Shown here: one piece after another, positions 1 to 49,089 of the stretch
How the letters are laid out: each line of letters begins with the position of its first letter
How positions within the stretch are numbered: position 1 is the stretch's first letter
From: Nageia nagi
Lineage: Eukaryota; Plantae; Pinophyta
Reading direction: 5' to 3'
Assembly: GCA_050084985.1 (NCBI GenBank)
Contig: JBITNC010000001.1
Span: forward strand, 171,492,001 to 171,556,000
DNA length: 64,000 nucleotides
Made by a program: the position numbers and the translations under genes
Notes under the pieces: model-generated
What the model was told of the DNA's origin: nothing
Database searches by the model: none
The model's input: only the letters and a program-made list of their open reading frames with translations

Positions 1-1034
1 CCTTAGAAGCATGCTATAGAAAGACAAGATTTTGTCTTTTGAAATGGTTCTCCAAACCCTCTAGTCATGCCAGCTTGAGCGCATTTTCCAAAAAGATAAG
101 ATTTTGTCTTTTTGAGGCATGCACTAGGTTGCTCTTGCCTAGTTTGTCCTATTTCGGGGCTTTACCAAGTGGGACTTAGCCAAATTTTCATATTTTTCTT
201 GAATTACTGTCTCCCTGGGTTAGGAGCATGCTACAGAAAGACAAGATTTTGTCTTTTGAAATGGTGCTCCTAACTCTCTTGATCATGCTTGAGTTGGATC
301 CTGATTTGAGGAGTTCGTGACTTAGCCAAATTTCCTCATGAGATCAGACTAGATGACTCTTTGTCATGAGCACATGCCCCCAAAAGACAAGATTTTGTGT
401 TTTTGAAGCATGCGCTTGCCTCCTGGGTACTTGGACTCCACTTTCTCATCTTCGAACTCGACCTATGTGGCCTTCCATCTTGAGCGCATGCTCCCAAAAG
501 ACAAGATTTTGTCTTTTTGAGGCATGCGCCAAACTTGAATTGCCTCTAGCTTGCCTTCTTCATCCTCCGTTCCAATCCAGACTACCCCAAACCCAAGCAC
601 ATGCCCCAAAAAGACAAGATTTTGTCTTTTGGAGGCATGCATTGGGCCTAAGAGTGGCCCAGTTTGCCTTTCTTGAACTTGACTATGATTTGGACAGCGA
701 CTAGACCCAGGTGCATGCCCCATAAAGACAAAATTTTGTCCTTTGGAGTGATGTGCTAGACTTTGGAGTGACCTAGTTTGGCTTGGCTTGGTCCGGACTC
801 ATCCTAGGTTCCCCTACTTAGCCTAAACTCAACTTATGGCTTCCAAACTTAGTCATTTTTTGAAGGATTTTGGCCTTTGTTTTAACATAGCTAAGACCAG
901 GTAGACAATAACACTTAGGCTAGGGATGATAGGCATGATACCTATGTAGGTGAAATTTTCGAATGTTTAAGACAAGGACAAGACATTCTGTAGACCTGAG
1001 TTGTTGTTTGGGGTGTGTTGTGTATGTCACAACA
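1..1034 (-). mobile_element. 5' end of a giant LTR-like unit (truncated by window start)
   Basis: Ends in tttggggtgtgttgtgtatgtcacaaca, the reverse complement of the family terminus TGTTGTG(N4-5)CACAACACACCCCAA also seen at 8774, 10747, 26290, 50823 and 52801. Contains a motif array. Confidence 0.75.
9..760. repeat. Array of seven ~46-bp palindromic repeats separated by largely dissimilar spacers
   Basis: Core AAAAGACAA-GATT-TTGTCTTTT, usually flanked by (GC)GCATGC...GCATGC(GC). Core starts at about 20, 92, 237, 383, 497, 610 and 724 (spacings 72, 145, 146, 114, 113, 114). Confidence 0.92.
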
Positions 1035-4772: not shown

Positions 4773-4892
4773 CTTCTTGATTGGCCTATTCTTTGGATTT
4801 CTTTCATACTTGTTCTGATTATAGTCTAGCCAGTTTTGCTGAGCTTCTCTTTGCTTTACAAGCTTGGATAATTTGTTTGCATTGTAGACAAC
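4773..4892 (-). CDS. OSCA1: OSCA1/CSC1-like channel, internal exon
   Basis: ctgtag|GTT GTC TAC AAT...AAG AAG|gtgtg, 120 nt. Encodes VVYNANKLSKLVKQREAQQNWLDYNQNKYERNPKNRPIKK. Confidence 0.96.
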
Positions 4893-7855: not shown

Positions 7856-8949
7856 TGTAAGGATCCAAAATGCAACTCAAAGCAAAATCAGCAAATTCGA
7901 TTAAAATAATCCTAACGTTAGGCCTTGGGCATCAACACAAGCATTCAAACCCTCCAGATGACAACGTTAGGGTTAGAACATTCAGATTGAGCTAATACAA
8001 TGCCAAGATGTCAACGTCTATTCTAGGGTTACCAAATCAAGCTTCCATATATCAACATCTGGCAATAGCATGCATATGACAATGAATTATACCCCACAAT
8101 GCCAACATATGGTTACTACATACAATGAACAATGAACAACATCCCACAATGGCAACGTCTGGCCAGTACAAGCATATACAAGAAGGAAAACCCAACGATT
8201 GCACAATACAAGTATACAACATACAAAATATGAGATCTAATGCCCTCATGTTGTATATATGATATGATATGAGTAGCAATACAATACCAAGCCCAGGAGG
8301 GTTGATGTTGGCCTCTCAGAAGCCAACTAGGGCACAACAATGAAAATCCTCACAATTGGAACAATCATAAAACCGTGGAAGAGTACGCTCCCTCAGAATG
8401 AGAATCTTCTCCATCGAAGGAGTCCTCAAATTCTGGATAACCACTAAAGGTAGAAGCAATACCTCGGATGCCACCGGATGGGTAAGGGCGTTGCACCAAT
8501 GCCATAGACAAACAAGATCCCTCAGCCTGAATGCCCTCCTAAGTGTTGCACTTAGGGAGATTGATTAGCACAGCTAAGATTTGTGTCCTTTGGACGAAAT
8601 GTGTGTAATAATAATAATTTGTATATCCAGTAATGAGGCTCCAATGTCTATTTATACATTAGCTCTGTCCAGATCTCACCTAAGAGACATCACCTAGCTC
8701 CTCTAATCCAACGTTAGCATCCTGGGGGCCTGAAATACCTAACATGGGTGCCTAGGGGTTAGGCATGCCAACATGTTGTGCGTACACAACACCCCCCAAA
8801 TTTTATTGCATTTTGAGGACCCTCAGGAAACAAAAAAAGGGGAGAGAATTGCATGGAAATTTGTCAAGAGGATGCATACCTTTCAAGCTAGTGTTAAGAA
8901 AATGTTCAATCTGCATTTTAGTGGTAGTAAGGGCCAAAATCATGCACCT

Positions 8950-10560
8950 TTCCTCCTATCGCATGTTTTCCATTGAGTGCTTTTGCACCCCCCTCAAGCC
9001 ATGAGACCATCCAGCCTTGTCTTTGTCATTTGCATCATCAAGTTTAAAAAATATCCTGAGGGTCTCCCATGTTGTACAAACCCCATTTGCATCTCATGTA
9101 TTGTTTTGTGTCGAAAAATGCAAGAGAAACACCCATTTTTGGCCTATCGCATGTTTTTGAGGGAGTGCTTTTGCACCCACTAGGAAAGGTGCAACTGGGT
9201 TGGACATCATCTCACACTTAGCATTTTTCAATACATTTTGTTGTCACATGCATTTCATGGAGTCCTTTTGCACCCCTTCAAAAGGGTGCGACCAAGGTGG
9301 CAACTCATACATTTTTCAGTACATTTTGTTGTCACATGCATTTCGTGGAGTCCTTTTGTCATTTTCACATGCTTTGGAGTGAGTCCTTCTTGCACTCCTT
9401 CAAAACCATGCGAAAAGGAGATTCCATACTTAGTCAAATTTTGGAGCCTCAAAGGCTATTGCATGCATTTCATGGAGTCCTTTTGGCACTCACCCAAAAC
9501 CATGCGACCAGCAGATTCTATACTTAGTCAAATTTTGAAGTCTCAAAGGCTGTCACATACATTTCATGGAGTCCTTTCAACACTCACCAAAAACCATGCA
9601 ACCAATGTGAAAGACACTTAGTCGAATTTTGGCACCTCAAAGGTTGTTGCAAGGATCTAGATGAGTCCTTTTGCACTTGTCCAATACCATGCAACTAGAA
9701 GGGAGAAAAAAAATTGACTAAGTGTTAAGCCTTGTTGACAAGTGGAAGCCCATGCACTAGACCTCTTCCTACGCCTATCCCATGGTGACACGTGTCTCAC
9801 CTAGAAGGCTATAAAAGGGAAGTCAACCCCCTTCATTTCAGTTTGCAAATTTGACAAGGAGCAAAGCGTGGGAGAACTGAAGACAAAGAACCCCTTCCTA
9901 GACGTCCGACCAAGGACTACTTGCACTTTTTTCAAAGTTTTCAGGTCCCAAGCCTTGGGAAGCATGCCAGGACTCAGGCGCAAGGGTTAAAGCATGTGCT
10001 TTAGGCACCCATCCAAAAGGGTGCGACAAGGGGTTAAGGCTTCAAACTCAGTGTGAAATTTGGCCAAGTCACCCCCCTTTCCCAATCGCATCATTTTCAC
10101 CCTATCCTTTTTGCACACTCCAAGAAACATGCGACCTTGTTATGGACCTCCTATTTGACCCTTAGGCCGACCATTAAGAAGGTGACACCTGGCAATTACA
10201 CAAACCTATAAATATCCCATCCCTTGAGCATTTCAAACACATAATTCCAGAATCAACCCTCTTCTTAGTCGCACCATTTCTCTTGCATGCCTAGGAACTC
10301 ACTCTGAAACGTGCAACCAAGGAGGAAAGAAGGATTTAGGGACATTGCACATTCAGTTAGCTTTTTTTGGCTAAGGCATTTCATATGAACCCCCAAACCT
10401 AATCGCACACTTTCAAGGCAATGCTTGAGGCACTCACTCAAAACCATGCAACCTGATCTAGAGTGAGGAATTGTCTAAAAATCGACTAAGTACCCTTGGG
10501 CCCAATCGCATACTTTTCAAGCTGTGCTTTTGCACTCATCCAAAACTGTGCGCCTAGATT
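8950..10560. repeat. Array of ~52-bp cassettes bounded by inverted GTCGCA...TGCGAC motifs
   Basis: About 12 cassettes, e.g. tgtcacatgcatttcatggagtccttttgcaccccttcaaaagggtgcgacc (9242-9293). Ends and length are conserved, the interior varies. Confidence 0.8.
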
Positions 10561-12381
10561 GGTCAAACATCTGGAGTTGAGAAGGGAGGAGTGATTTTCT
10601 CTATGGCTTTGAGCATCAAAGTACCCCCGTTGAAAGCTAGAAAGGCCCAAAGCCAGTTGTTCGAGAGGCGTATGACTCAAAGCCAAATGACTCGGCTTTT
10701 GAAGGAAAGTCTGATAGAGTTTCAGCAGAAGGACAAATCAGAGCTCTGTTGTGCCCGCAAAACACACCCCAAGATGTAGCATTTTGGGGACGCTACTTTT
10801 TTTGGAGGCAATGGACGACATTGCCTGAAGGTGACTATACAACGGCTAGAGAAAAGAGTCAGAGCAATCAAGTGATGAAGCAGTGCACACAAATGTTCAC
10901 AGAGGAACCAAGTCAGTTCAGTGCGTCTAGGGGCGATTCATGGTCCGGTTTCAAACAACATCAAGCAGGATGCAATTTTGGATCGCACCAACAACCAAGA
11001 AGGGAGTTTTTCACCAAGTGACCAACAGAGCATAAAAAGGCGTGTTTTCACAGCATTTGAGTGCAAGACTGACAGAGTTGACAAAACAGAGCATTTTTTC
11101 AGGAATTGAGCTCATAGGTACCTAGCATCACAAAAGGCGTGTTTTTTGCAAAATTTGTGTGCAAAGGTACCTAAGTAGCAAAAATGAGCGTTTTTGTCAC
11201 TTTTGAGTCCGAGTGCCTTGAAAATGATAAGGATGACAAAAATGGACGTTTTGTCAAAGTTGACCCTAGAAAGCTAGAAAAGGGCACGGTAGAAAGGTGC
11301 GTTTTGGTCTTTTTTGGGCTCAAAAGCAGTCAATATGGTAAAAAGGTGCGTTTTGCATGATTTGAGTTTGGAAAGCTTGGAAATGATCAAAAGTGACGAA
11401 TTGAGCCTAAAATGGCCAGAAATGCTCAAAAATGCCGGAAATGTTGGAAAAGGTCTTTTTTTTCACACTAAGGGCCCGTCCAATGAGGTGAAAAATGGCA
11501 CCTAGGATCAAGGAATTTGATAAATTTTGGTCAAAAATCAAGTTTGATGGGTCTACAAGGTGTAAAATGTGATTTCTAGCACATTTAGGTCTTAAAAAAT
11601 TCGAAAATGAGCAAGTTTTGACCCTCTAAAAGCTAGGCACAGGTTTGCAGATGTTTCTAATTCCGTAGGGATGAAAAATGGCGCCTAACTTGGAGTGATA
11701 AGTGAAAAATGCATAAAATTTTGATCCCAATGTGTCAATTGCATGGAAAACCCTATTTTGAACACATTTAGAACTCCAAAATTCGAATTTTGAGCAATGG
11801 AAAGGCACCTAAAGGCTAGGCGCAGGTTTTCATCCCATTGGAAATCCAATGGAGTTAAATCTAGTGCCTAAGATGGAAATATTTTGCAAATTTTGCTCAA
11901 AACTCAAGTGTGAAGGGTCCATTGGGTCAAAAACATCATTCTAAACACATTTAAACTTGCAAAATTCGAATTTTAAGCAATTTTGAGGCACCTAAAGGGT
12001 GAGCATTCCAAGCATGTTTAAACTTACAAATTTTCAAAATTGAGCACTAGAAATGCCCCAAAAAGTCAGGCATAGGTTTCCAAGCCATTGGAGAACCCAA
12101 AAAAAGTGAAAATTGGTGCCTACATACAAGAAAAAAGCCCCAAAAGTCATCAAAATTCGATTCTGGGCACATAGATGGGTGAAGGAAGTGATTTGAATCA
12201 CATTTAAACTTTGATTTTTTTCAATTTGACCCAAGGAAGTGCCTCAAAAAGTTAGGCACAGGTTTGCAATCCTATGAAGTGTTCAAAGGCTCCAAAAACT
12301 TAAAAATTATGCAAAATGCACCCTTAGAGCACTTTTTAGGTCAAAAACCCACTAAGGAGCATGCAAAAGGCACAAAAAACC

Positions 12382-12389
12382 TATAAATA
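12382..12389 (+). promoter_or_regulatory. TATA box upstream of the unit 2 ORF
   Basis: ccTATAAATAccc. An equivalent TATAAATA sits at the same relative place in unit 1 (10207), unit 3 (48656-48663, minus) and unit 4 (61403-61410, minus). Confidence 0.6.
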
Positions 12390-13130
12390 CCCTATCAAGC
12401 CTCTCATTTGCTCCACAAACATTCTCCTTGAGCCTCCACGCACCCATTTTTGAGCAAAACCTCACAAATTGCTCAAAAACTTCAAAATTGGTCACAAGAT
12501 CCAAAATAAGCCAAAACCTTGTCAAATTTTTTCAAGGATCTTAAAATTCCATCCTCTATCAACCCATTAGGTCAAATCTACTTTTTAAAAATTTTCAAAA
12601 ATTCGGACCCCCTATCTTTTGGCCATTTTCACCATTTTCAAGTTTTTTGAAAAAAAGTGTAAAAACACAAAAAACAGTTTTTCAAGGCCAAAAAACTCCA
12701 AAATTTGAGTGATCCAAACTTCGAAGTGAATATCAAAGTGATAGATCCCATATAGGAGAGCAGCCTCCATCATTCACTTCCCAAAAATGAAGCTTGAAAA
12801 CCCATTTTACATCCCTATCTTTCCAAGCTTCGAAGCTGCAAAAACCTGTCAAAAAACAAATACATAGGCTAAAAAAACAGTGAGTTAATTCAGACCCTGA
12901 AAAACTCGAAATGTTTTTTCGAGACTTGGCCACAAGTCTCCTAGATTTATTTGCCAACACCCCATGTACTTGTTTCCTAGTTTCGACGAACTTGAAAATT
13001 TGCAAAAATCCACAGCTTCTAAAAAAGCCAAAAATAAGCCAAAAATTTTACTCTCTTTTTTGCTCCAAAATCGCTCCAAAGATACCCAATACCACTCCTA
13101 ACACCTTGTTGTACTCGACAGGTTGGAATC

Positions 13131-16100
13131 ATGAGCATTGATAAAAAAACAAAGACGGAGAAGCTCATGAAGACTAGCCTGATCACCCTGGAAAAAAAAG
13201 AGAAGGCTCTCTTCCCTACAGTTGTGCTAGTAGATGGACTTGGACAAATCAAAAACACTAACCGGGCGCATACTGACCCCATCAAGTCATTAGAGAAGAT
13301 GGCCAAGATCCCACACAAACAACTCTTCAACAACACACTTGCTCAATCCGGAATCATTGAAGCTTCTTTGATCCTTTTCACCGCTCCATTCCCAAAGTTG
13401 TGCCTCGAGGTAGCAAGATATTGCGACACAAAGGAGAGAGTCTCTCGACAATGAAGGCACAAAAATACTAGATTTCACTATGGAGGGAATAGAGAGCGTA
13501 TTTGCATGGAGTAACGAAAGTATCATATTCTCCATGAAAGAGTTCGTCAAATTCTACAATAGCCTGACCAAGCCGGGGAACTTGATAAGAGATTGGTTGG
13601 TTGACGAATGCAAAGATTACAAGGCAAAAGCCCTAAGTCAACCAAGAAGGATAGACTTCTATCCTACAATCTCAACCATCATCAGTATGCTATGCAAAAT
13701 CACGAGACAAGAGAATGATCAAAGATTCAGAAAGGAATTCGTGGGTTTCATACACTAGATCAGCAGAGGCAAAGGGATCAAGTGGAGTAAGGTGATCAGT
13801 GACTGCATGGCCCAATAGTTATCCAAACTCGTAGAAACGAAGAGATTCTACATGAGCTCTTTCTTGGTATTCCTTCTTCTACATGGCAAAAATAGAAAAT
13901 TCGCCCTAGCAGATACCAAGTACCTATTTGACCCAAAAATGCCAATATGGCGGAGTTACCCTAGATTCATGTTGGAAAACCGATGGGATGAATTCAAAAT
14001 GATGAATGAAGGATTCGTGTGCCGTATATATGCAGAGATAAAGGGGACCATCAATATGACCAGGATATCACAAGTGGCAATCCAAGTTCTTCGAGGACAT
14101 CCAAATTTTTGTCTCAAAGAGATAGATGCCACATATATCAAGGTTTACGGGTCAATTGAGCCACCTTATAGACTTCCTTGTTACGCAAGTGATCGATTCA
14201 TCCTTATGGAATTTTGCAGACACTTGTCATACTTACACGAGAAAGTCTAGTGCAAAAAAGGTGCCACCACATGCAAATTACCTATCCACATAGGGGAGTA
14301 TCAATGCACGTCATGGTGTCAAGTTAAGATGATGAAGATGGAGCTAGCATATTACGGCTTCAAAGTAGAACATGCAGTAGAGTACTATGATCCTAAAGGT
14401 GTAATCAGTGCATTCTACAAGAAAACCTGGCAAACTAATTACCCTCAAAAGTCCCTAGGAAAGCTCGAAAGGTACAGAAATATAGATGAAATCAAACAAA
14501 TCAGCAGGATAAACAGGGACTTGGCGGCAGAAGAGAAGCTCAAGCAGACCATGACCAAGAAAAAGAAGAAAAGAGGTCTGCAGGAGGAGAATGCAGTAGC
14601 CAGGATACATCCTTCGATAATTCTTAAAAAGAATCCCCAATTCTGTGTGAACCGCCACCAATTTCACCTTCTGTGAGATTGACACAATGGCAGTCTGGTT
14701 AGTATGCCACATTCATTGTTAAAACCAGGGCAAACTATTGATCAGACCATACAAGGATTATTGTAAGAGATAAGAAGCACTAAAGTGATTGGAAGCACTT
14801 CACACGCATACAAACGCTTAAAACAGCTAGTGGAAGTTCCTCCCAGAGGTCCATCCCGAGATGGACAATTATATTATTCTGGCCCTATTTCTCCTACTTC
14901 TCCTCCTTCCAGTGATAGCAAGGATGAATATGGGATACTGGCCATAACTCCTCCTACCATGGAAGAACCCGTTCATGCAACAAGACCTACGTCTACACCG
15001 GCATCCACACCTTGGCAACCAAATAAGACACCACCTTAGAGAAAACCTCCACCACTTGCTCCAAGAAGGATCCCAACATCCAAGAGAATAGCTTCCTCAT
15101 CAGGAGGGGATGGAGGAAATGAAGAGGATGAAGGTGAAGATGAAGACCAAAGGAAGAAAAGGAAAGAGGAAGAACATCAAGGGAATCCGGAGAAACAGGT
15201 GACTGTAATGGCTAATCCTGAGCTGAGTTACAATTTCGACATGGCGGCGCTCTTAAAAAACTTAAGTGCATATCATTCATCCGAAGCCCATGCTGACCTG
15301 GAAGCCGATCAGGATTCAAAGAGTGAATTTGAGCATGTAGCCACCTACATCTCAATGAAGGATGATTCCATCGTCACAGATACTGTTGCTGCAGGAAGAA
15401 AAAGGAATGTCGATGGAGAATTTGCATTAGTGGTGGAAACACAAGAAGAGCCATGCAAAGCAATCGGGACTTTGGGCAAGCAACATGCAATAGTTTTTAA
15501 TGTTGCAGCGCTGACAAAGGAGAACACATCACAGAAGGTAGAGCTCAGGGAGCTGAAAAGAGAATTGGCTAACAAAAGGAAGCTAACAATTGATATCCAA
15601 GCTACTAACCTAACAGTTAAAGACATCAGGAAGTAGATGTCACTGAATACCGGGATTCAAGCGGTCAAACAAGAGTGAATTAACGAGACCAAAGAGGCTA
15701 TTCAAGAGTTATTCCTAGGAATAACTAATTTCTTTATTGAAGACAATGGGTCGTTCGTCGCTCAAGACAGGATCCATGAACTGATTGCCAAGTGCGGCAA
15801 TAGTTAGCATGTGATGCATGAGCTAAGAAGGAAAGCTGTTGGCACACCAATAATACTAGAGTACTGTCATCAATTCTTTTACCAGTATGATTGGCTATTG
15901 TACGTTATTTCAAAGTGTCAGGATTTGATCCAAGTCTAGCCAAATTTCAAAGCAAACATGAAGAAACAGCTGGTGGAATACCAATTTGATCTAAGGCTGA
16001 TCGAGGAAGATGGACGCAGCAGGGACTATTCCACAGTAATAAATGAGGTACAGTTGATGATCAACACTTACCTCAAAACTAAAGATATTAATGTCCTCAA

Positions 16101-16311
16101 ATCTGGCAAACAACTCAAATATGGTAGCAATATGGCAATATGGTGTAGCGAAATGAAGAAGACTTCAAAGACCATCACCGCATATCTATTGGCAAATGAT
16201 AGGATAATGGAGATTCTCAACACTGGAGTCAAGAACAAATAAATCTTCATGGGCATGGACTTCAAGGCCACCATCACATCACATGTGTAAACTGCAAATC
16301 AGCCACCATAA
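13131..16311 (+). pseudogene. Decayed ~1,050-codon accessory ORF of unit 2 (unknown function)
   Basis: Collinear ORF fragments broken by stops and frameshifts: APFPKLCLEVARYCD, WSKVISDCMAQ*L..KRFYMSSFLVFLLLHGK, TYIKVYGSIEPPYRLPCYASDRFILMEFCRHL, a Pro/acidic linker, coiled-coil-like ELRELKRELANKRK and a conserved C-terminal block. No RT, IN or gag motifs. Confidence 0.85.
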
Positions 16312-16513
16312 TTTTCGTCACTTTCAAAAATTTTGTAAATCAATCAGCCGGAAAAGTTGAGCACCAAAACTCGACTAACCCTGCTCTCATGATCAGTCAG
16401 CCTGGCAAGTAGAGCACCAAAAATCAGCTTACTTAGTAGTAGCAAGCAACTATGTAATATTTTAATATTTTTTTATATAGAATTAGGGCAACACTTGGAA
16501 ACCCTAGAAATTC

Positions 16514-16521
16514 TATAAATA
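16514..16521 (+). promoter_or_regulatory. Second TATA box (candidate LTR genomic-RNA promoter) downstream of the unit 2 ORF
   Basis: aaccctagaaattcTATAAATAgacccc, about 1.07 kb from the 3' end. An equivalent site is at 59946-59953 (minus) in unit 4. Confidence 0.55.
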
Positions 16522-19500
16522 GACCCCATGGGGTCACTTTAATGTAGATTGAAAGTTTGGAACTTTTCAAGGAATGAAAATTTTGAGAAAAAGTTCAAAT
16601 TTTTTGTAAAAGGAGAAAAATTGTGAAAACTTTTATGTAACTCTTTTTCAAAGAAAATACAAAGTGGTTAATGCAAAGACTTGAGTTTGACACTTTTCAT
16701 ATTGATGCTATGTATTGATTCTTTGAGGGCACTCTTATTGCGTTTGTGTACTTTCGTTCTATTCCTTTGAAAGCTCTTGGGCTTTAAGGAAGTTATCTCT
16801 GAAAAATATTAAAAAGTGCTTGAAGCCCACCTATGTTTGTTGCTTGGTCGTTAGCATGCAAGTTGATTGGGTATTCTATGTTAGTTTCTACTTCTATGAC
16901 ATCTTCTTAGGTCCTTCATCCAAAACCATGATCCATTCACTTTGAGACCTTCCATTTCCATGCAATTGAATCGGTGCTATTCGTAGAGAACCGACAATTG
17001 GCGTTCCTTCCCGCTCCTCTTTGAAGCATTTCGATCATGAAGTTGTTTGCTTGCAAGGTTGGATGAATTGGATGAAGAGTCCTTAACTGATCCGAAAGAG
17101 ATTAACTCTTAGACACTTTCCCATCAGTGAACCTCAACCTCATATCTAACCAAGTATTCTTTCTTTCTCCAAGGTGTTTTACTTCACCTATTTCCAGTAT
17201 TACCTTTACTCTTTCTTTATGCTTTCATACCAAATATTATCGTTAAGTCCACACACAAAAGCTCCGAACAAACTCTATACATCAAAGAATAAAACATCGT
17301 TGGTTAATAGACTATATACCTCTCATTCCATTCCATTGAGGCTGATTCCAAAAAGGGATACCACACTTTATTTCTATATCTATCGCTATTCAGAAAACAC
17401 ACCGGGCAAACAAACCTTACGTCACGACGTTGGGGTCGCTAGTAGGGTGTTTCAACAAGAGCCTTGGAGGTACACAATACTTTTCAACCAAGGAATTGGT
17501 AACGTATTCCCAACTATGTTGCTTGAGGTCTTGTGAGTTCCGCCCGCGATATTCAAAGTGTCCCACATGAGAAAGAAAAGCATCCCAACAAGCTCCCTAA
17601 AGCCAAATTCAAGGGGAAACACATCTTTGTTGGTGACACTAATTGGGGAAACCTGGACCCTATTCTAACCTTGGCCTCCACGACCTCCATCAGTAAAGAA
17701 GACCTATCATAGGAACTTATCCACACATGCAGTTTGTTCAATGCCACTATGATGCCATTTGCAGTACCTTTTCCTGACTTGTGCAATGAAGTGGCCAGGA
17801 AGTGTGACTGTAGCAAGAGGATTTTGTAGGACACAAAAGGCAATGTGATCATGAACTTTTCCCCTATCGGAATTGAAGCGGCCTTTGGCTGGAAAAGATA
17901 TGGGAATGATTATACATTGGTTCATTCTGAAGAGTTCCATGACTCCACATCACGGCCTGGAGACTATATTCAACCCTAGCTACTCGAAGAATTTCAAAAC
18001 CTTCAAGGGCAGACGCTGATTAGTGCATGGAAAGATGAATTCCTGCTAGTTGTGGCAAAGTTGATCACCCTCTTGTCAAGGGTAACCGGTCAAGAAAGTG
18101 ATGCTAAGTACTGGAGAGAGTTCACAGGTTTTATTGTTGTTATCAATTCGAGGAGACCTATTCGATGAGTTGGGGTAATCAGTGATGCCTTGGGCTATCA
18201 GTTGTACTTTTTCGGCTCCTCGAAGAGATTCTATATGAACTCTTATCCGGTGTACCTATTGCTACATGGCAAAGCCAACTCCAAGGAGTTGGCTGATGAA
18301 AGCTATTTGGGGCAAAAAAACGTCCCCGTGTGGAGGGCATACCAAAAATGGTGGTGCCAAAACAAGTTCCAATACCTCTATGAGAGGATCGATTTCTAGG
18401 AATATGATATCTACAATGATATGAAAGGAGAATCCGTGGTGAAGAGGATTTCTGATACAACTACTCAGGCCATCAGCGTACATGCAAACTTCTTTTTGCA
18501 GGACGTCGATTTTACATATACCAAAGTCTTTGGTTCAGAAGAACAACCCCCTGCTCTTGCCTAGATTCGCCAGTGATAGGTTGATCCTCATGGAGTATGC
18601 TAGGCAGCTCTTGTTCCTAAAGGAGAGGGTCTAGAAGAAGAAGAATGCCACAATAAATTTGCTATTACTATATCCGAATGTGTGCCAAACATGGGTGGAG
18701 GCAACGCATATGCGAGAGGAGCTACAACAATACGGCTTCTTCAAAGAGGCTGCTGCTAAAAATTATGATCCTAAGGAGGTAATTGCGCATTTTTATAATA
18801 CAGTTTTTCATTGGCCCATCGCATTTCCACACAAGCCTTTGGGAGATGAGGGGAGGTATAGAAATGGACATGACAAAAGAGAAATTGCACACATAAAGGC
18901 TCTTTTGAGCAAGAAGAAGGCTCCCCTTCAAGGAGAAAAACCTCCTCAAAAGCCTCAGACTACCAAGCCCCGATCTAAAGAGGCCCCCTTGAAGATCAAG
19001 TCTCCTACTCACACCATGTCCTCACAAAAGAAGACACCCTTGCATCTTGCAGGGAAAAGACAACAAGCCCCAAGGGAGCCCATCCCGTGTCCCAGCAAGC
19101 GCAGTGTAGTAGAGGCTAATCTTAGAGATGTTGGTCATGTTGTTCCCTCGAATGTGCTGGACAATGTGGTGAATACAGCATGTGGTAGTGGTTCGTCCAC
19201 CAAGACAATTCCTTCTAAATCCACCCATTCTCTTGGTCCAAAGGAGAAAGTTCCCCTTTGCAACCAAGTTCTAGCTCTAGTTCTAAGCGTTCATCTTCTT
19301 CTTCTAATGAAGAGACTGAAGATCCTGACCGTACGATGGAAGATTCTGCAGAAGAATCGAAGAGCCGTAGCGTGAAAGAAGAAGAAGAAGATGATGTTGA
19401 CAATGCTGCCAATATGCCTGAGCTAGAGGACATAGTTGTAGGTGTTTCCGCACCTGATGAAAACGAGATTGAAACCATCCCGGATGATGAGATAGTGGAC

Positions 19501-22500
19501 GTTGGAACCTATGATGATGACGTCCAAATAAGTGGGAGGAAATGCGCTAGAGAGGTGGCTGCATCTAAGTGCTCTCTTGCCGAACCTAGGAAGAAGCTTC
19601 CTTTTTTGCACAAACCCTCTACCAAGAGAAGTCATGAGAGATCTCCCCATCTCCAAAGCAAAGGCTTATCTATAGGCGGTGACGGAGGAGATGAAGAAGA
19701 CGAAGGAGAGACTGAGGAGCAGAAAAAGAAGAGACGGCAAGAAGAGCATCAAGGCAAGGAAATGGCCATAGTGTAGACCACTCTAGTGAAGGAAGTCAAG
19801 AAGATTAATAAAGGAAAATTGTTGGTTCAAAGGTTTCCCCGTCAGCTAGCAACCAAACATCCAAATCTTGACCTGGATGATTGCCTTAGAACCCTCAGCA
19901 TGAGTATAGCTCATGATGAAGATATAGACCAGGACCTATGTTCTGAAGATGAGGAAGGACTTTCAGATGGAGAGAAGATTCAGAGGGTGAACACTTTTGT
20001 CTCCACCTCTCAAAAGGAGATCTCCATCAACCATTGCTACTTGAAAGAGAAGCACCCTTAGAGAGTGGAGGACTATCATTGAGACTTTCAAGATGCCAGT
20101 GAAACTAGGGTTGACATCCAGAAAACACATTGTTACGTAGAATGCTGCAATCATGGAACAGGAAGGCTATGAAGCCAAAAAGGAGGTGAAGAGATTGAAG
20201 AAGGAACTCACGGTTAGCAGAAAGATTATAAATGAGTTCCAAAAAATTATCACCACCCCTTTGCACCTACAGAAGCAGACTTCATTCCATGAAGGATGGG
20301 GACTGATGAAGGAGTAGCTTAAGAACGAAGTGATGGAGGCCATCGAGAAATTGTCTTCACAGATTTACAAGCTCCTTGCTGAAGGTGTTGAGGTCAAGGA
20401 TCTCAAAACTCAAATTTTAGCACATCTCGGCACATTGGATAGTTACCTTCCCAACATTTCCCATCTGCAGCATATTTTTGCTGATAACCTAGCAAAGTTG
20501 GTCTACTGTCATGAGTTCTCACCATGATTGGTTGAACCATGCACTTGAGAAGTGCAACGTTGTCCTAAAAATCAAGGTCCCCTTGCGAAAGGATGTTGAG
20601 GACCAAATGAGTGAATATCTTTATCAGCTCAAGTTCCAAGGGGAAGATAACAATGTCAGGAAGAAGGAAGCGGTATTGGAAGAGGCCCAAAACCTAATCT
20701 AGGAGCATCTTGAAGTTGACGATCTCAACTTGTTGAAAGTAGGGCATCCCATTATTCATGAGATACGGATGGTCATCTGGAGATACCAGATGCAAGCTAC
20801 GATCAAGAAGATTGAGGGATACTTCTGGCAGAATGGCAGCATTGTCCGCATGATCTCCAGGGGCATGCGGAAGATCTTGGCATTTTTGGGGGAGACTGTT
20901 GAGTCCTATGGTCTCACCAGTGAAGAGTGGAACTCTGTCCATGCCGAATCGGATCTGGCCGAGATTTGATTCACCCGCAAACTTCATCTGCGGTATTTTG
21001 TTTCTGTGTTCAATGCATATGGTTATGTCAGACTTTATTTTGACTTGACTAGTGTAGGGATGAGGTTCTGCTCCCGCCAGATCAAATCCGTCAAACTCAT
21101 TTATGACATAACCGGTGCAGGGATGAGGTTTTCCTCCCGCCAGTTTAGATGTCAGACCTTTTTCAGACTATTTATTGCATCTGAATTTTTTTTTTTGTTG
21201 CATAGATTAGAGGTAGAGTACATGCATTTCGGTGGTGGCATTTATATTTTGTCAACTTTAAATGCCACTAACATAGTTTTGTGTGAAGATATCTGATTTT
21301 GTATTGGTATGTGTGTTGGGTGTGTGCACACCATATTAGATTTGATGCCTTTAGGGCATCACTTCTAGTGGCCTATTTATACCCAACTCAGGCCAGTTAG
21401 AAAGGGGATTTTGGCATACGGATGTTTGCATGAGGAATCTATGCATATGATCTCTGTACTATTTTTTGCATTGGACTTTTGCACGTAATGAAACCATCAT
21501 ACACTAGAGTTCTTGCATCTTGAGATTGAGGCTATTTAGTTTATTTGTACAATCTTTTGAGCCTTTGCATGTCGTAAGATTCACATTCCATTGCATAGAA
21601 GATTGTTGCATAAGGGGTTCCATGCATATTTTGTTGTTGAAAACCATTATGAATATGTCTGTTTAGAGGAATAAAATCATAAAGTTATACTGTGAGGAAC
21701 ATCATTTTTTGCGATTATGTATATTTGAATGGTTCTCTCTATGAACTGCATGTTGATTACCTTGTGAAAGAGTTTGATCCTTCTTTGCATAGTTGCACGC
21801 AAGCGGATATATTCCGAGGCTTACAGCTTGTCTTTATATCATTCGGTTAAGTTACTGCACTTAGCCTTCACTCCATCTTCACCCTTTCCATTGAGTCTTC
21901 CATAAAGACCCCAAAGCTTCCTACTCTCGTCTGGCAGTGATTTGAGCATATCCTCACATTCCCTTGCACTTATCCCTATGTCTGTCCCTGCATTTGTGAT
22001 CTTTCTTCTCTTTCGTTCACATTCGCACTCTTTTCTTATTAAGGAAAGGAATCTCGATGCAAGTTTCCCTTGTATAAGGTTAAAAACATGCATTTCTGAA
22101 TTCTGAGCCAACAAGACCATATTCTATGTGAGCGCTTGGGGTAACCAGTTGTTTCAGGCGGGAACAAGTAACGTTGTTTCCTCTAAGTCATGTGCATGTT
22201 TTGAGCAAGGAAAGAAAAACATACCAACACAACGTAGGGGGCCAAAGTGCATTAAGTGCTAACGTTGAGTCCTAAGTGTGCCACGCTTGCCCACGTGGGT
22301 CAAAGAGTCATGCGTGGGAGTCCTGGTGTCCAACTTAACCAACGTGGGGGTGTGGGGGCCTCCCCAAGGCTAGCATGAGTAAATAATGATCCATCCATCA
22401 TCTACATGTAGCTATGGACCTTGGGATTCCCACAATCATTATTGGGATCTCCAAGGACATAATAGGTGCCTAATCTATACTTAGGAGGGAGATGTCCCAC

Positions 22501-24449: not shown

Positions 24450-26290
24450 GAGACTTGCGCTTGCACTCCCTTTAGATCATGCGACCTCCTCCTTCTTGAT
24501 TGGAAAATGAAGTCAATTTGTACTACTAATATCTTTGGTATTTCACGTGTGCTCCAATCACGAACCCAAATGTCCATTTTCATGAGGTCACATGTTTTGA
24601 CAAACCAGGCCAAGATGCATGTTTTGTGATGCTTGCATTTGTACTCCTTTGAAATCGCACGACCAACTTATACTTGAAAATCCTTTTGGTCGCATGTTTT
24701 GGAAAACTTGCACCTTGCACATTTTTGGAAAAGTGCAACCTACTTATACTTGGAATTTTTTTGGTCACATGTTTTAAGAAACATAACCTTTGCATCATAA
24801 TGAAAGTGTGTGACCTCTATGAAACATAGAAATTTTTCCACAAAATGAAGTCCATCATCCCTTTATGACCTTTTGATGACACTTAGCAACCAACCATAGG
24901 ATGAATCTACCCTTTTGACCAGGTCGCACGGCTTGGAGAAGATGCCTTGGTCGCATAGTTTTGGGGATTTACCTCTTGCATCTATGTGAAAACATGTGAC
25001 CTCTACTAGACTTGAACAATTTCTTTCAAACAAGGTCTCATCTCTCTTTTTGTAGCCTCTTATTGACATATATCAACAAATTACTAGGTGAAACTGTCTT
25101 TTTCTCTTGGTCACATGGTTTTGGAAAGATGCCTTGGTCGCATAGTTTGACATACATGCAACTTGCATCTTGATGGAAACACGCGACCACCCTTTCTAGT
25201 ACTTAGAATTTTCACAAAATGAAATTCTCTCTTACTTTTATAAGCCCAATGACACATGTTACCTCCCCACCATTTTTGGCCTTTGGTCGCGCGATTGCAT
25301 GACTATGCCTTGGTCGTGCGGTTTTTGGACCATGTCTTTTGCATCCTTTTGGAAACATGCAACCACCTTAAAAATTGCATTTTTATTGCTCAAATGTGGT
25401 CCTAGCTTCCTTTTATGGCCTTTTGGTTGACAAAAGGGGACCTTAGACCAGTTTGAGTTCATCTTATCATGGTCGTGCATTTTGGACATCATGCCTTAGT
25501 CACACGATTTGAGGAAGATGCCCTTGGCATTGAGGTGAAAACATGCAACCTCCTCAAAACTTAATTTTTGCAATGGAATTAACACTATGCTCTTTTTAAC
25601 ACTTTCCACAACACATGGCATCACTCTACATACTGAAATCACCCTCAAAACCTGGTCGCATGGTTTGTGTCTCTTGCCCTTGTCGCACAGTTTTGGTCAC
25701 TTGCCTCTTGCATCTATGTGAAAACATGCGACCACTTTAAAACTTAAAATTCTTTGGCTGAAATGAAAGTTTGAAGTCCTTTTATAGCTTTTTAATGATA
25801 CTTGACATGAAATTATAGTCTAAATCTGCCCTTTCGATCAGGACGCATGGTTTGAGGAAGATGCCTTGGTCACACACTTAGAGGGATATGCTACTTGCAT
25901 CAGGCTGAGATCATGTGACCTCTTCCAGACTTGAGAAATTTTGCTCAAATGAGGTCTTACTCCTCGTTTTAAAGACTTTTGAAGCTCTCCAGATGATACT
26001 TGGCACTTTTGGACTGAATTTTGGATCAAATTTGCACAACATAAGGAGACATATTAAGTCACATCTTTTATGGAACTAACTTGTGCATTATCCTGAAAAT
26101 GCGCAACCTCAAGGGCAAAGCTGTGAAAATGTGCAAACTTTCCAAGATCAACTTGTTGAAGGTGCCATCTTGATGATTTCACTTTTTTAGCTCTTGCTTT
26201 TCTAGGATCGACTTGTTGAAGGTGCCATCTTGCAAAAAAGTAGGGTCCCCAGATTTTGGAAAATTTGGGGCGTGTCGTCCGGGCACAACA
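24450..26290 (-). mobile_element. 5' fragment of a giant LTR-like unit with ~185-bp tandem motif array
   Basis: Terminus aatttggggcgtgtcgtccgggcacaaca ends at 26290. GGTCGCA/GGTCGCA/TGCGACC cassettes start at 24922, 25109, 25285, 25471, 25654 and 25841. Confidence 0.8.
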
Positions 26291-34482: not shown

Positions 34483-34532
34483 GACTTTACAAAAGGATTT
34501 TGCCCTAGAAGAAGACCTAGGTGTGTAAGAAT

Positions 34533-41973: not shown

Positions 41974-43767
41974 CTATTCCACAACGTAAACTAAATTTAA
42001 TTAGAAATAAAACACTGCTTTCGTACAACAACAAAAGAGATGAAAGAGATCAACAACAAAATGTTACTCAACTCCCTTGAGATTATATTCATTGCTGGAA
42101 GGATAAAGAAGAATTAGCATCAGCAAAATTGATAATAACATAAAACAAAAAATATGAATGACATGCAGGTACAAAGATGGTATTTTTCTGTTATGTATAC
42201 AACTGCTTTTGTATTTTGAGAGAGTGAAATTCTACAAAAATTTCACATGTATCAATTGAGTAAAAGTGTTCTTAAAGATTGTTGTTTGGGATCAACATTG
42301 CTAATAGTTCAAGCTGATGGCCTAAAATATCAACATGGAGAACTCTTGGTCTAAATAGATTTTATAAATGAACTTCAACTTTGGTAAGCCTTGGAAACAA
42401 GTATAAAATGCAGTACTTTTATTCAATAATCATGGAGAGGCTTGATTCTCCTGTCCATATCATTGGACTTAATATTCTCTTTTCTATTCCAGGAATAAAA
42501 GAGATCAGCATCCCACTAATGCTTGTCAAGTACTAAAGAGCTGGTGTTGGGAGGTATTTCTTTCCCGCGGCAATTCTTTAAAATTACCTTAGGCTTTAGG
42601 ACTCCCCAACATCATACTCGGGAGAGTTTTATCAATTCTCCCATTTAAAAAGGACTATCTACCTCCAAGGTTCTTGTCGAAACTCCTACTCAATGCTCTG
42701 ATGTTTGTAGGTAACTTGCAAAGCAAAATCCAATGCTTGTACAAATGTTTGTGCGTAGGGATGTATTATGTGTGTGCGGTATCCCTCTTTGGAATCAGTC
42801 TCAATGGAAAAAATGTATGGAATAAGAGATGGTAGCTTGTTTAACCAACGTTTTTTTTTATGATGTATAGAATTTGTTCGTAATATTAGTGTGTGTACTT
42901 AAATATCGTATTTGGGTTTGGAAAGCATAAAATAAGGCATAAAGGTAATACTGAAAAAGGTGAACAACAACACTTTTGAAGGAAGAAATGAGTACTTGAT
43001 CAAGTATGAGTTTAAGGTTCACAATGGGAAGTGTCTAAGAGTTAATCTGTTTCGAAACAGTGAAGAATTCTTCATCCAATTCTTCCAACATTGCAAGTAA
43101 ACAACTTTCGTTTGAATTGCTTCAAAGAGGAGAGGGGAGGAATGTTGATTATTGGTATTCGTGAAAACGGGCCAAGCCAATCGAAGGGACACGTATGGTT
43201 CAACACATGAATGGAACTAAGTTTGGATGAAGATCCCAAATAGATGTCATGAAAGGAGAACCTGAAATAGAATACCCTATCAACTTGCGTGTCGAGAATC
43301 AAGCAACGAACATAGGTTGGTTTCAAACACTTTGTGAAATGGAACAAGGATAATTTCCCTAAAACTCATAAGTTTTCAAAGGAATGAAGCGAAAGTGCAC
43401 AAACCAACTATGAAAGCTTTTAAAAGGATTCAATTCACAACACCAATATGAAAAGTTTCAAACTCAAGTCTTTTGGTATAACCACTTTGTATTAATTTTG
43501 AAAAGGGATGTACAAAGGTTTACAAATGTGCTCTCCACTTTCAAAAAAAAATTCTTTCTTCAATAATGAAGTTCTTACAATAATGAGACCCTATGTCTCT
43601 TACTTATAGACTTTTACGAAACCCTAAAAGTGAGTTTTGAAACCCTAATCTCTAATTAGAAAATCAAGAGCTAATTGAATGCTAATTGAGATTACATTTC
43701 GACTTAGTGGAAATCCACTAAGTAAGCCAAAATTTGGCTAAAATATCAAAATTGCTAAAATAGACCC

Positions 43768-45590
43768 TGTTGGGCCGTTTCTCTTTCCTACCCTACGAAT
43801 AGGCAAATTGACTTGCAAGGCTTGCGGAAGACACCAACACCTAGGTGGAAGGCCTACCCGCTATGAGGACTACAACCTCAAAGGTCTCATGAAATGGGGG
43901 TGCGAGAATTGACTCAGGAGACTGGTTAGGATGTTTGAAGTTGACACCAACTCAAATAAAATTTGTTAATCAAGGACTTAGATTGTCTTCGTATCTAGAC
44001 AAGGGTTGTTTCGCAAATAAGGTAAATAAAATTGGGGGTGCGAAAGCCGCGAAAAAAAGTGAAAAATAAAACAAAAATAGGAGGGGAGATAGAGATGATT
44101 AGAGGCACATGAGTTCAGCTCTTTGCATCGGGCTCCACTGGCAAGTACAGTGTCTAAAGGCCAAGTTCCTCAGAGTTTCTTGTGAGTTCCACACATCCTC
44201 TCATTCTAGCCAGACTACACGAAGGTTCTTGAAGGAGGATACATCCACTTACAATAGCCAACAACACAAATGGACTACTGAATGAAGGGAGCATGCGTCT
44301 AAGGGGACAAGGATGACACTTTCCATATGTGGATGAAGTTCACACGCTAAACGTCATAAAGGAACCCACTTTCAGAGTTGTAGAAATCTAGTTGCATACT
44401 ATGAACAATCATCAATCATGCATCACATTCAACACTTCGAAAAGATATTCAACTACTCTTTCACTCACCCCTTGAGGAGTTTGTGAAATGTTCCAAGTAT
44501 CTCAAGCAACACACATCAATAACTAACATCACATGTCAAAGTTCATAATACCATAAAAATGGAATTGTGCAATTTTCATTTCAAAGATCATGCCACATTC
44601 ACAATAGACAAGTGTGAGATAGAAAGAATTACTGTACTCATCTAGTTGTAAAATGTTCAAAGTTCCATTCTCAAAAATTCCTCTCCCTCACAAATGAACC
44701 CTCTAGGGCTATTTATAGTTTGCAAGGCAACCCTAAGTGTTTCCCTAACCCTAACTAATATAAAATAATTAAAATACCAATAAGTCCAGCACTTGTGGGA
44801 GCAAATCCTCATCGATCACAAGGCTTTAACAAAATTTATAAAATTTGAGGTCCAAAATATTGATTTATGCAAAAATAAAATAAAATTAAAATATTGCATC
44901 CAAGATGCAATCGGCTTCCACTAGCTGGCATTCATGAGTCCATCAATTTCTTCATCTCCATCCATGGCACTTGTCTTTAAGTCATCTCCACCCGCTGGTT
45001 CCAGGTATGCTTGTCCCTGAGTGGTTTCCTCTTCTTGAGGATGGCATGGCTTAAGGAGTATGATCTCCTCTTCAGGGCATGTCTTCTTCTGGCTTTCCTC
45101 CAACTCCCTAGCCATCCGGGTGATGTCTCTAATACACTCTGCTCCAGTGGTCTCGACCTTGTCAATTTCAATCTTCAAAGTCTAAGTCTCCATGTCTTGG
45201 GATTTTTTTGGGTCCTTGTTCAAGAAGACTCTGATCATACACAGTGTCGTTAACCTTGAAGATGAACCGACTCACATGGTGAGTCTTCATGGACTCATCC
45301 TTCACCCTCTGGCTAGGATCCTCATGTAGTGCCCTCATCATAGCTACTAGGTCAAAGGGAAGCCTTGTCTTTGGTGGAGCTTCATCCACAATCACTGCCC
45401 CCTCCAACTTGACCTCTTCCTCTTGTGTCTTAGGATTCATCTCTACCATAGGTCGTGGGATGGTGCCTTGGGTGTCTTAGCGAACGAAGGTAAGAAGTCC
45501 CTTGGCTTGTCTCTTGGATGGGCTTCCAAGGTCTCAATTTCAGTGCTCAGGTGGGTTCACAAGGAGAGACTAGTGTTGGTCGTGCAAGAA
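43768..45590 (-). mobile_element. Nested 3' fragment of a further related LTR-like unit inside unit 3
   Basis: Begins TGTTGGGCCGTTTCTCTTTCC (family 3' terminus) exactly where unit 4 continues aaatagaccc-ctttcta into the ORF stop. Has its own TATA (ctatttatag near 44709) and a different ORF tail (44921-45449). Far boundary approximate. Confidence 0.6.
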
Positions 45591-47780: not shown

Positions 47781-49089
47781 TTGTCCTTGTTATGTGAACA
47801 ACAGTGTTAGGACAGTCCTAGCAAGTATCTAGCACTTTTTGGGTAAAAAGAGGAATTTTGGAATTTTTGGATTTTATCCCAAGTATACATCATCGAAAGT
47901 GAGCCAAAATTGGAAAGTTTCAAGGTGTTTTGAGTGAATCTGGAATGATACCAAGGTAACTAACTCTAAGGGGGAGGTGCCTTTAAAAGAATTTGGGATT
48001 TTTGGAAGCTTTTTGGAGATTTTAGCTCAAAAATAGAGCTTGCTGGAAAAAAGACAGACCTGTCATAATTTTGCAAAGGAAATAGAGGGTAAATTTGGAA
48101 ATATTGCCAAATGATATCAGTATTCGTTTCTAACAACTTGGATAGATGGGGAATGAGTAGGGAAGGTGTTTTAGCTTTTGAAACGGCCAATCCCGACTTA
48201 AAAAACACCTTTTAGAGAACTTTGAAAATTTTCATAGATTTTTTGAAAAAATCTCGAAAATTTTTGGATTTTAGGCACTCAGATCTTGGACCTTGGAATT
48301 TTTTTGTGTTTTTTTGGCTGAAATTAAAAATGATCCCAAGGGTAATGGGTATCCAAATATGTGATCCAAGTTGAATTCTGAAAAAAAAAAAAATTCAAGG
48401 GTTTGGGATCTTGGAAAATTGGTTTTGGAGCATAAATCCTCAAAAATCTTGAAAAAATGAATATACGTGATAGAATACCTTAGGATCCTGGAGTTTGGTG
48501 ATGACAAGGTGTTTCGCTATGGTTTCAAGACTCCAAATCTTGGTCCAAGGCTGAAAGTTGGGTTTTCTTCCTTGTTTAGCTCTCCAATTCTTCAAAAAAA
48601 AAGGCTCCAGGTGGGTGCAAATGAGAATTATGAGGAATACGCAGGAGTGGGGGTGTATTTATAGATTCTAGGGCCAAAATAAGCCACATGTCAACACCAT
48701 ACTAACCCCAGAATGTATTTTTTTGCACTTTTGAAGTATCCTCCTCAAACCCAATGTTGGAAAAAAGGCCAAAATATTCAAAACTTGGCAATGTGTGCCT
48801 AGGAATGGGAGGAGGAGGATTGGTCCATCTTGCATGCTCCAAGAGGCAAAGTTTGAGGTTTTTTGCATGCTCTTCCATTTCCATGTTTCACATTTGGATT
48901 TGAAAATTTGAACTTTTTGAAGAAAATAGACAAATACTTGGATCTTTTTCATTTTTTCATCATTTTGGAGGACAAATCCATTGTTCGGAGGAGTAATTCT
49001 TGTCCAAATTGCACACTTGGAAGACCAAAATGGTGTAGAATCACACCACCTAGCTCATGAAGACCATAAATTGCAATTTTGACAAGTTT

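What the first reader, a model, noticed from the sequence alone, without database searches (positions are those of the whole stretch)
8774..22229. Family of ~6.6-8 kb LTR-like units that carry a >1,000-codon gene inside the TG...CA boundaries
Seen: three units have both ends (TGTTG...CAACA) and 5-bp TSDs (8774-22229 CAACA/CAACG, 10747-17590 AGCTC/AGCTC, 42545-50823 GCTGG/GTTGG). None has an internal LTR pair, PBS, PPT, gag or pol. All share the layout motif array - TATA - long ORF - TATA - 3' end. Further fragments occur at 1-1034, 24450-26290, 43768-45590, 52801-53600 and 58914-64000. Established: TG..CA plus a 5-bp TSD is the retroviral-type integrase signature. Extra ORFs of plant Tat/Ogre/Athila elements normally lie between the LTRs, whereas LTR-encoded genes are best known from retroviruses (MMTV sag, HIV nef overlap). 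Inference: these are giant solo LTRs whose U3 holds a complete transcription unit, so every solo LTR leaves a gene copy behind. Alternatively they are a single-unit element mobilised in trans.
Basis: partly seen in the sequence, partly recalled or inferred. Interest (0 to 1): 0.88.

Follow-up and report, generated by a model that had tools for sequence, protein, structure and literature searches.

The report
Giant retrotransposon LTRs carrying a gene
This tree genome holds many 6.4-6.8 kb mobile-DNA units, each wrapped around a long gene that is now broken; they are likely the oversized end repeats (solo LTRs) of a retrotransposon that carried its accessory gene inside the repeat, an arrangement I did not find described for plants.

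Summary
The units are real. Three have both ends and 5-bp target duplications. Unit 2's empty site exists in other copies of unit 1. None has an internal LTR pair, PBS, gag or pol. Corrections: the gene is a pseudogene in every window copy. Only units 1 and 2 span over 1,000 codons. Unit 3 is 6.4 kb without a nested piece and has lost much of its ORF.

New evidence: the ORF evolved under purifying selection (dN/dS 0.10-0.24), and near-intact relatives exist. Its N-terminal domain folds confidently and has only sub-threshold links to plant mobile domain (PMD) families. Unit 2 is a mosaic: its last ~950 bases are 86-88% identical to another subfamily whose ORF is only ~35% identical. The switch lies just downstream of the second TATA box, where an LTR's R region would be, as reverse-transcription strand transfer predicts.

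Best reading (0.67): giant solo LTRs of a gymnosperm Tat/Ogre/Athila-like element with the accessory gene in U3. The weak point is that no paired parent was found, and 0 of 8 3' ends had a PBS. An unpaired single-unit element is not excluded. New variant of a known kind.

The parts
8774..22229 (+). Unit 1 (outer; 6607 bases without nested unit 2), TGTTG...CAACA, flanks CAACA/CAACG, inserted in the LTR of another element
   Evidence: (both flanks match one paralogous LTR near 38124-38232)
8774..10205 (+). Unit 1 5' terminus and motif array (94-bp tandem unit); TATA boxes at 9809 and 10206
10603..20969 (+). Unit 1 broken ORF, about 1,170 codons (10603-10746 and 17596-20969, split by unit 2); at least 10 stops and 4 frameshifts
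21373..22229 (+). Unit 1 second TATA (TATTTATA variant) and predicted R-U5
   Evidence: R-U5 is inferred
10747..17590 (+). Unit 2, complete, 6844 bases, exact AGCTC target duplication, inserted in unit 1's ORF
   Evidence: empty-site joints
10747..12380 (+). Unit 2 conserved 5' terminus and diverged motif array
12381..13130 (+). Unit 2 first TATA (12381) and leader with a predicted 3' splice site (CTAAC...AG ending 13121), also seen in unit 3 and the 58914-64000 copy
   Evidence: splicing is inferred
13131..16242 (+). Unit 2 broken ORF, about 1,037 codons: folded N-terminal domain (PMD-like lead), acidic/Pro-Ser-Thr linker, helical C-terminal part; 1 frameshift, 11 internal stops
16513..17590 (+). 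Unit 2 second TATA (16513) with telobox-like words upstream, predicted R-U5; mosaic switch near 16640
42545..50823 (-). Unit 3 (6446 bases net), TATTG...CAACA, flanks 4/5 matched; 359-bp tandem array, TATA at 48664 and 43609, ORF remnants 47779-45616 with most of the N-terminal domain deleted
43768..45600 (-). 3' piece of another family member nested in unit 3 (ORF tail, TATA at 44718, 3' terminus at 43768); its 5' part and about 250 bases of unit 3 are deleted
58914..64000 (-). Member with 3' terminus, both TATA boxes (61411, 59954) and most of the ORF deleted; runs off the window
1..1034 (-). 5' terminus and motif array of a more distant member; runs off the window
24450..26290 (-). 5' terminus and motif array with two TATA-like sites; no ORF or 3' end
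52801..53600 (+). 5' terminus and short motif array; truncated

Best explanation
These 6.4-6.8 kb units with TG...CA ends and 5-bp target duplications are likely giant solo LTRs of a gymnosperm Ty3 retrotransposon (probably Tat/Ogre/Athila-like), whose U3 region would hold a whole accessory gene that is now broken in these copies. Shown: boundaries, target duplications, no internal LTR pair, the layout array-TATA1-ORF-TATA2-3' end, purifying selection on the ORF, and a mosaic switch about 125-135 bases after TATA2. Inferred: TATA2 starts the genomic RNA (R about 16545-16680, U5 to 17590), so U3 is about 5.8 kb. TATA1 plus a spliced leader would express the ORF and end at the shared poly(A) site in R. 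A parent LTR-PBS-gag-pol-PPT-LTR of 20-30 kb would copy the gene into both LTRs at each round of reverse transcription, and recombination between such long repeats would leave solos. The likely origin is a 3' extra ORF with its own promoter that was drawn into U3 when plus-strand priming moved upstream of it. Protein function is speculative (about 0.35): a PMD/VANC-type DNA-binding anti-silencing factor acting on the subfamily-specific motif array in its own LTR.
For: Integrase-type ends and target duplications. No terminal repeats, with a working positive control. The termini are the best-conserved part across subfamilies whose arrays do not align. R-U5 identity of unit 2 to four other copies is 86-88%, the same as among them (88-90%), while its C-terminal protein is only 35% identical to the two of them compared (L001, L009); unit 3 shows the reverse (69-72% DNA, 61-64% protein). 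Identity steps from about 55-60% to 78-88% some 950 bases from the end. dN/dS is 0.10-0.24 in 6 of 6 unsaturated pairs, and the other 8 of 14 pairs have saturated synonymous sites at 29-53% amino-acid identity. Near-intact relatives of 758 and 838 aa exist, and 130 relatives were found at E<=0.001. AlphaFold pLDDT is 83 for the N-terminal domain. Tat extra ORFs with PMD plus coiled coil are described (PMC4408406). The main plant LTR survey capped LTR length at 6,000 bp (PMC6317226), so a paired parent would have been missed by design.
Against: No paired copy and no PBS-gag junction was seen. 0 of 8 3' ends have a PBS-like TGG and 0 of 7 5' ends have a purine tract. In four public runs the 59 contigs leaving the terminus agree only 0.39-0.44, and none of the four consensus strings starts like a PBS (24 of 63 rows shown). 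Seeing only outer junctions has probability 0.024 at a solo:paired ratio of 2.8 (the Cupressus figure) and 0.26 at 10, so the model needs an unusually high solo ratio; legume values were mostly 0-2 (PMC4659654). The PMD link is below every threshold: no Pfam hit in 53 of 53 aligned members, HH-align probability 0.5% against the canonical PMD in this window, and Atlas hits under 0.9. R, U3, U5 and splicing come from sequence only. The mosaic rests on one copy and could be gene conversion.
Confidence: 0.67

Rival explanations
1. The unit is itself the mobile element: an LTR-derived, unpaired cassette that keeps integrase attachment ends and is moved in trans without a PBS-gag-pol-PPT parent of its own, for example by DNA-level excision and integration or from head-to-tail forms.
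For: All 15 ends inspected (12 independent loci) are outer junctions. There is no PBS consensus among 59 terminal contigs. Contig depth is high and continuous over the whole unit, with thousands of contigs laid per run.
Against: The inverted termini are only 5 bp and no transposase or integrase is encoded. The mosaic switch at the predicted R region points to reverse transcription, which needs PBS and PPT. Contigs that overlap the terminus by only ~30 bases may not have been laid, so a PBS junction could be hidden (inference about). I know of no such plant element (recalled).
Confidence: 0.17
2. Giant LTRs of a non-autonomous parent (LARD-like or gag-only) rather than of a full gag-pol element. 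The gene-in-LTR layout is the same, but the parent borrows its enzymes.
For: No pol is linked to any copy. The window holds another pol-less LTR element with gag and an antisense PMD ORF, so such parents exist in this genome.
Against: It also needs PBS junctions, and none were seen. Nothing here separates it from the best explanation except the content of an unseen parent.
Confidence: 0.1
3. Ordinary internally deleted or decayed elements, with the ORF between two short LTRs that are no longer recognisable.
For: Extra ORFs of plant elements normally lie in the internal region (PMC7264820). The two TATA boxes share a similar context.
Against: No terminal repeat in 3 of 3 units, while the control pair scores 10-30 times its null. 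The largest class of laid contigs is 90-95% alike to unit 2, so an LTR pair would still be obvious. The 5' terminal motif occurs once per unit.
Confidence: 0.04

Closest known systems
Tat-clade Ty3 elements with PMD or PMD-coiled-coil extra ORFs (gymnosperm TatII/TatIII, Ogre; PMC4408406, PMC6317226)
   Same: 5-bp target duplication, very long LTR-like sequence with tandem arrays, and an extra ORF with a folded N-terminal domain, disordered linker and helical C-terminus.
   Different: Described extra ORFs lie between the LTRs (5' of gag or 3' of pol, often antisense). Here the ORF is sense and inside a single TG...CA unit. The protein has no Pfam PMD hit.
Solo LTRs of long-LTR plant elements (rice Retrosat2, PMC3485330; Fabeae Ogre, PMC4659654)
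   Same: A single TG...CA unit with its own target duplication, no PBS or PPT, and solos in excess.
   Different: Those LTRs are non-coding (Retrosat2's ORF0 is upstream of gag-pol), and their solo ratios (0-2; 2.6, up to 10.5 on one chromosome) are mostly below what is needed here.
Retroviral U3-encoded genes (MMTV sag, HIV nef overlap; recalled, not checked in a paper)
   Same: A coding sequence inside U3, copied to both LTRs, with a splice acceptor before it.
   Different: Those ORFs are about 200-320 codons in LTRs of at most about 1.3 kb (recalled). Here it is about 1,040-1,170 codons with its own TATA box, in a plant.
VANC/VANDAL anti-silencing modules (PMC5735166) and PMD-C protein-motif modules (10.1101/2024.09.27.615353)
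   Same: A transposon-encoded protein beside fast-evolving, family-specific tandem motif arrays; PMD-C and VANC domains are reported to be structurally similar.
   Different: VANC is on Mutator-like DNA transposons, and MAIN/MAIL are host genes. No binding or anti-silencing was tested here, and the fold link is only a lead.

Membership tests
Solo LTR of an LTR retrotransposon | TG...CA termini | tested here: met
   unit 3 reads TA at its 5' end, one substitution
Solo LTR of an LTR retrotransposon | 4-6 bp target-site duplication around a single unit | tested here: met
   5/5, 4/5, 4/5; empty site of unit 2 seen
Solo LTR of an LTR retrotransposon | No internal LTR pair, PBS, gag, pol or PPT | tested here: met
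Solo LTR of an LTR retrotransposon | U3-R-U5 organisation (start site and poly(A) site inside the unit) | tested here: inconclusive
   TATA2 lies 857-1078 bases from the 3' end in 8 of 8 copies and the mosaic step follows it; no RNA data
Solo LTR of an LTR retrotransposon | The same sequence occurs elsewhere as a pair flanking PBS-internal-PPT | tested here: inconclusive
   Not seen at 8 3' ends or in the terminal contig consensus; no genome held
Ty3 OTA clade (Athila/Tat/Ogre) | RT-RH-INT phylogeny and aRH position | not testable with these tools
   No pol linked to any copy
Ty3 OTA clade (Athila/Tat/Ogre) | PBS type (tRNA-Asp, Asn, Arg, His or Lys) | not testable with these tools
   No PBS found; lineage table in PMC6317226 supplement 5
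Ty3 OTA clade (Athila/Tat/Ogre) | 5-bp TSD, very long LTR with tandem arrays, extra ORF (typical, not exclusive) | tested here: met
   described
Plant mobile domain PF10536 / PF20167 / PF03078 | Pfam profile match | tested here: not met
   0 of 53 aligned members; P0002 and P0004 none; the canonical PMD in the window does hit at 1.6e-33
Plant mobile domain PF10536 / PF20167 / PF03078 | Shared fold or remote homology | tested here: inconclusive
   Atlas feature hits 0.80-0.87; 8 of 10 structure rows are land-plant clusters, several with PMD or PF20167, all under the naming bar; HH-align 0.5% with two motifs in register; Foldseek PDB and viral gave 0 hits at E<=0.001
LARD / TRIM / TR-GAG non-autonomous elements | Two LTRs flanking PBS and PPT within the element | tested here: not met
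Integrase-type DNA transposons (Ginger, Polinton; features recalled) | Long terminal inverted repeats and an encoded integrase | tested here: not met
   Inverted match only 5 bp; no integrase domain

The most novel reading that the evidence does not exclude
A high-copy gymnosperm element that has given up the paired-LTR form: one LTR-derived cassette with integrase ends that carries its own DNA-binding anti-silencing gene and the motif array that gene recognises, and is mobilised in trans.
Probability: 0.15. Interest if true: 0.88.

Novelty: new variant of a known kind. Interest (0 to 1): 0.64.

Why it matters
If the best reading holds, a plant retrotransposon placed a ~1,050-codon selected gene inside its LTR, as some retroviruses do on a much smaller scale. 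Each solo LTR would start as a self-contained transcription unit with a promoter array, gene and poly(A) site. The family fills about 48% of this window. Its paired parents would exceed the 6-kb LTR limit of the main plant survey, so an abundant part of gymnosperm genomes may be mis-annotated and solo:intact ratios miscounted. The layout also makes an open question testable: what retrotransposon extra ORFs do (called enigmatic in PMC4408406). Subfamilies pair a diverged protein with a diverged motif array in the same unit, which gives matched and mismatched pairs for a binding assay.

Tried and rejected
No genome is held for this window, so no genome-wide count of solo and paired copies was possible. 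Sequencing-run search: 12 of 24 listed runs hold part of unit 2 and no RNA holder was listed; this says nothing about expression. Metagenome scan with the 3'-terminal 20-mer: 10 loci, 3 family members, 7 chance matches with no BLAST hit to the window. Viral and prokaryote collections: no relatives; the 1 match (L011) was unrelated. Search for proteins of 855-2440 aa: 0 of 4796 candidates (weak evidence), so no fused or full-length form was found. PDB by sequence and by fold, and viral folds: nothing significant; the wider structural search never ran because the machine was busy. Atlas on the C-terminal part gave only generic helical hits under 0.9. Rfam: 0 matches. Folding of the last 130 bases beat shuffles in 1 of 5 ends, so a U5 structure is not claimed. 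The recurring letters after the 3' terminus (S-N-W-T-C-T-A for 7 bases, then no agreement between runs) were considered as a non-canonical PBS and read instead as target-site preference. Reverse orientation was considered: TGG follows 2 of 7 5' ends on the other strand, but both are explained by the target duplication and the following letters differ. My PPT control slice was misplaced by about 10 bases, so the purine-tract count has no valid positive control. Literature searches for LTR-encoded ORFs or giant LTRs in plants (plus 40, 59, 80) listed no such description; most subscription journals are not covered, and two large supplements of PMC6317226 (element table, FASTA) could not be read and may list similar elements. 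Earlier findings of this scan: nothing relevant.
Full report
Context. The window lies in very long introns of a minus-strand OSCA/CSC1-type channel gene (exon near 1322-1702, Pfam PHM7_cyt and RSN1_7TM). It is probably a gymnosperm. The only named relative of the ORF among 10 proteins looked up is a Taxus chinensis hypothetical protein. A protease-like region followed directly by an RNase H (RVT_3) at 58913-57989 fits the gymnosperm TatII order described in PMC6317226 (passages). No genome was held.

Observation. The three units and their flanks are as stated, with a joint chance of about 4.5e-7 for the flank matches. Unit 2's boundaries are independently fixed: contigs in 2 of 4 runs join 10741 to 17591, i.e. 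unit 1 without unit 2 and one target copy, and unit 1's frame continues across the site. Unit 1's two flanks match adjacent parts of a paralogous LTR in the window. No unit has a terminal direct repeat, while the ordinary LTR pair at 26376-27043/34548-35165 scores 245-893 against nulls near 30. Net lengths are 6607, 6844 and 6446. The gene is broken everywhere: unit 2 has 1 frameshift and 11 stops in about 1,037 codons, unit 1 at least 10 stops and 4 frameshifts, and unit 3 and the 58914-64000 copy have large deletions. So 2 of 3 complete units carry a >1,000-codon pseudogene.

It is a high-copy family. Four public runs gave 4,220-14,097 contigs laid over unit 2, covering 30 of 30 bins, with 90-95% alike the largest class. 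A metagenome scan with the 3' 20-mer gave 10 loci, 3 of them family members ending at the same base with unrelated flanks. L001 also holds a nested member of about 1.8 kb that keeps the 5' end, array, the last codons of an ORF, TATA and the 3' region, so it is an ORF-deleted derivative. Members are nested in each other three times (unit 2 in unit 1, 43768-45600 in unit 3, and in L001).

The ORF was a real gene. Relatives of 758 and 838 aa without stops exist in metagenome assemblies (they may be collapsed assemblies of several copies), and 130 relatives were found at E<=0.001. Of 14 pairwise comparisons, 6 were unsaturated with dN/dS 0.10-0.24 (upper bounds 0.21-0.47) and 8 had saturated synonymous sites at 29-53% amino-acid identity. 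The N-terminal 439 residues fold with pLDDT 83 and pTM 0.77, followed by an acidic, Pro/Ser/Thr-rich linker and a C-terminal part whose Atlas hits are generic helical proteins. Its family is not settled. Pfam finds no PMD-type hit in 53 of 53 members, and PDB and viral fold searches are empty. HH-align to the canonical PMD in this window gives 0.5% with two motifs in register. The Atlas returns land-plant clusters, some with PF20167, PF03078 or PF10536, all below its bar. It works like a PMD-coiled-coil extra ORF (PMC4408406, passages and section 11) but is not filed as a PMD member.

Why LTR. TATA2 sits 857-1078 bases from the 3' end in 8 of 8 copies, with 1-3 telobox-like words in the 120 bases before it in 5 of 5 window copies, against 0.1 expected. 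The first ~50 bases are conserved across subfamilies whose arrays differ in unit and motif. A branch-point-like CTAAC and AG precede the start codon in 3 of 4 copies. The most telling result is the mosaic. Over the last ~900 bases unit 2 is 86-88% identical to four copies that are 88-90% identical to each other, yet its C-terminal protein is 35% identical to the two of them compared. Unit 3 is the opposite: 69-72% in DNA and 61-64% in protein. The step lies near 16640, about 125-135 bases after TATA2. Strand transfer during reverse transcription joins U3 of one RNA to R-U5 of another inside R (established knowledge, recalled), which fits. Gene conversion in this one copy is the alternative.

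Against. No paired parent was found. 0 of 8 3' ends have TGG within 8 bases, while the control LTR does, and 0 of 7 5' ends have a purine tract (the PPT control was misplaced). At the terminus, 24, 10, 13 and 12 contigs run on into other sequence with agreement 0.39-0.44 and no PBS-like consensus (24 of 63 rows shown; short overlaps may be missed). With three solos and nine single ends, all outer, the probability is 0.024 at ratio 2.8, 0.26 at 10 and 0.49 at 20. Published ratios are 2.8 for Cupressus and about 1:9 for spruce (10.64898/2026.07.23.736688, passages), 0-2 for most Fabeae elements (PMC4659654, passages), and 2.6 with up to 10.5 on one chromosome for a 3.2-kb LTR (PMC3485330, passages). 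A 6.7-kb LTR in introns could plausibly exceed 10 (inference), but this tension keeps the unpaired-unit rival at about 0.17.

Comparison with what is known. Reviews place plant extra ORFs in the internal region (PMC7264820, parts 1-2 of 3 read). PMC6317226 (passages and supplement 5) reports LTRs up to about 5 kb, searched only 100-6,000 bp, and lists sense 3' extra ORFs in 26% of TatII elements, a possible ancestor state. PMC10508981, PMC13468544, PMC11539532 and PMC13477047 (term passages only) say nothing on this layout. Searches listed no plant gene-in-LTR case; subscription papers and two unread supplements limit that. For function, VANC proteins bind motifs that expand as tandem repeats (PMC5735166, passages), and PMD-C proteins act through promoter motifs against Polycomb and resemble VANC structurally (10.1101/2024.09.27.615353, passages). 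The array-plus-gene layout suggests the same logic but is untested. MMTV sag and HIV nef are recalled, not checked.

Verdict. A real, abundant, old family with an unusual anatomy. Most likely giant solo LTRs with an accessory gene in U3 (0.67; 0.77 with a non-autonomous parent included). New variant of a known kind, interest 0.64. One look at the host assembly would settle it.

Noticed in passing
window 26376-35165 (-): Ordinary LTR element (LTRs about 670 bp, 85% identical, PBS starting TTTGGTGAAC) with gag (Retrotrans_gag, 1.4e-9) and an antisense canonical PMD ORF (29622-30650, PF10536, 1.6e-33) but no pol seen: a gag-plus-PMD non-autonomous form, used here as the control.
   Followed up: partly
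window 1322-1702, about 36420-36520, 41837-41975, 55975-56090 (-): Exons of an OSCA/CSC1-type calcium-permeable channel gene spread over more than 55 kb; all the units lie in its introns. Only the first-listed exon was checked by Pfam.
   Followed up: partly
window 57989-58913 (-): Decayed protease-like and RNase H (RVT_3) coding region directly after the 3' end at 58914; the unit appears to be inserted into it rather than being its LTR.
   Followed up: partly
L001 780-830 (matches the window near 17500-17530): A ~50-base stretch 55-105 bases from the 3' end has about 20-70 times the contig depth of the terminus itself, so it is shared with much more abundant relatives. It contains a small hairpin with a GTAACG-like loop, also visible in units 1 and 2.
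   Followed up: no
L001 5002-6688 (+): ORF-deleted 1.8-kb family member inserted in the ORF of another member, in the opposite orientation.
   Followed up: partly
window 5657-7009 and 37253-38589: Two 76%-identical LTR-like copies with 30-bp CCAACGTGGG-type repeats; the same family hosts unit 1 (flanks at 8680-8773 and 22230-22630).
   Followed up: partly
window 50823 and 52801: Two nearly identical 5' termini face away from each other 2 kb apart, on opposite strands.
   Followed up: no
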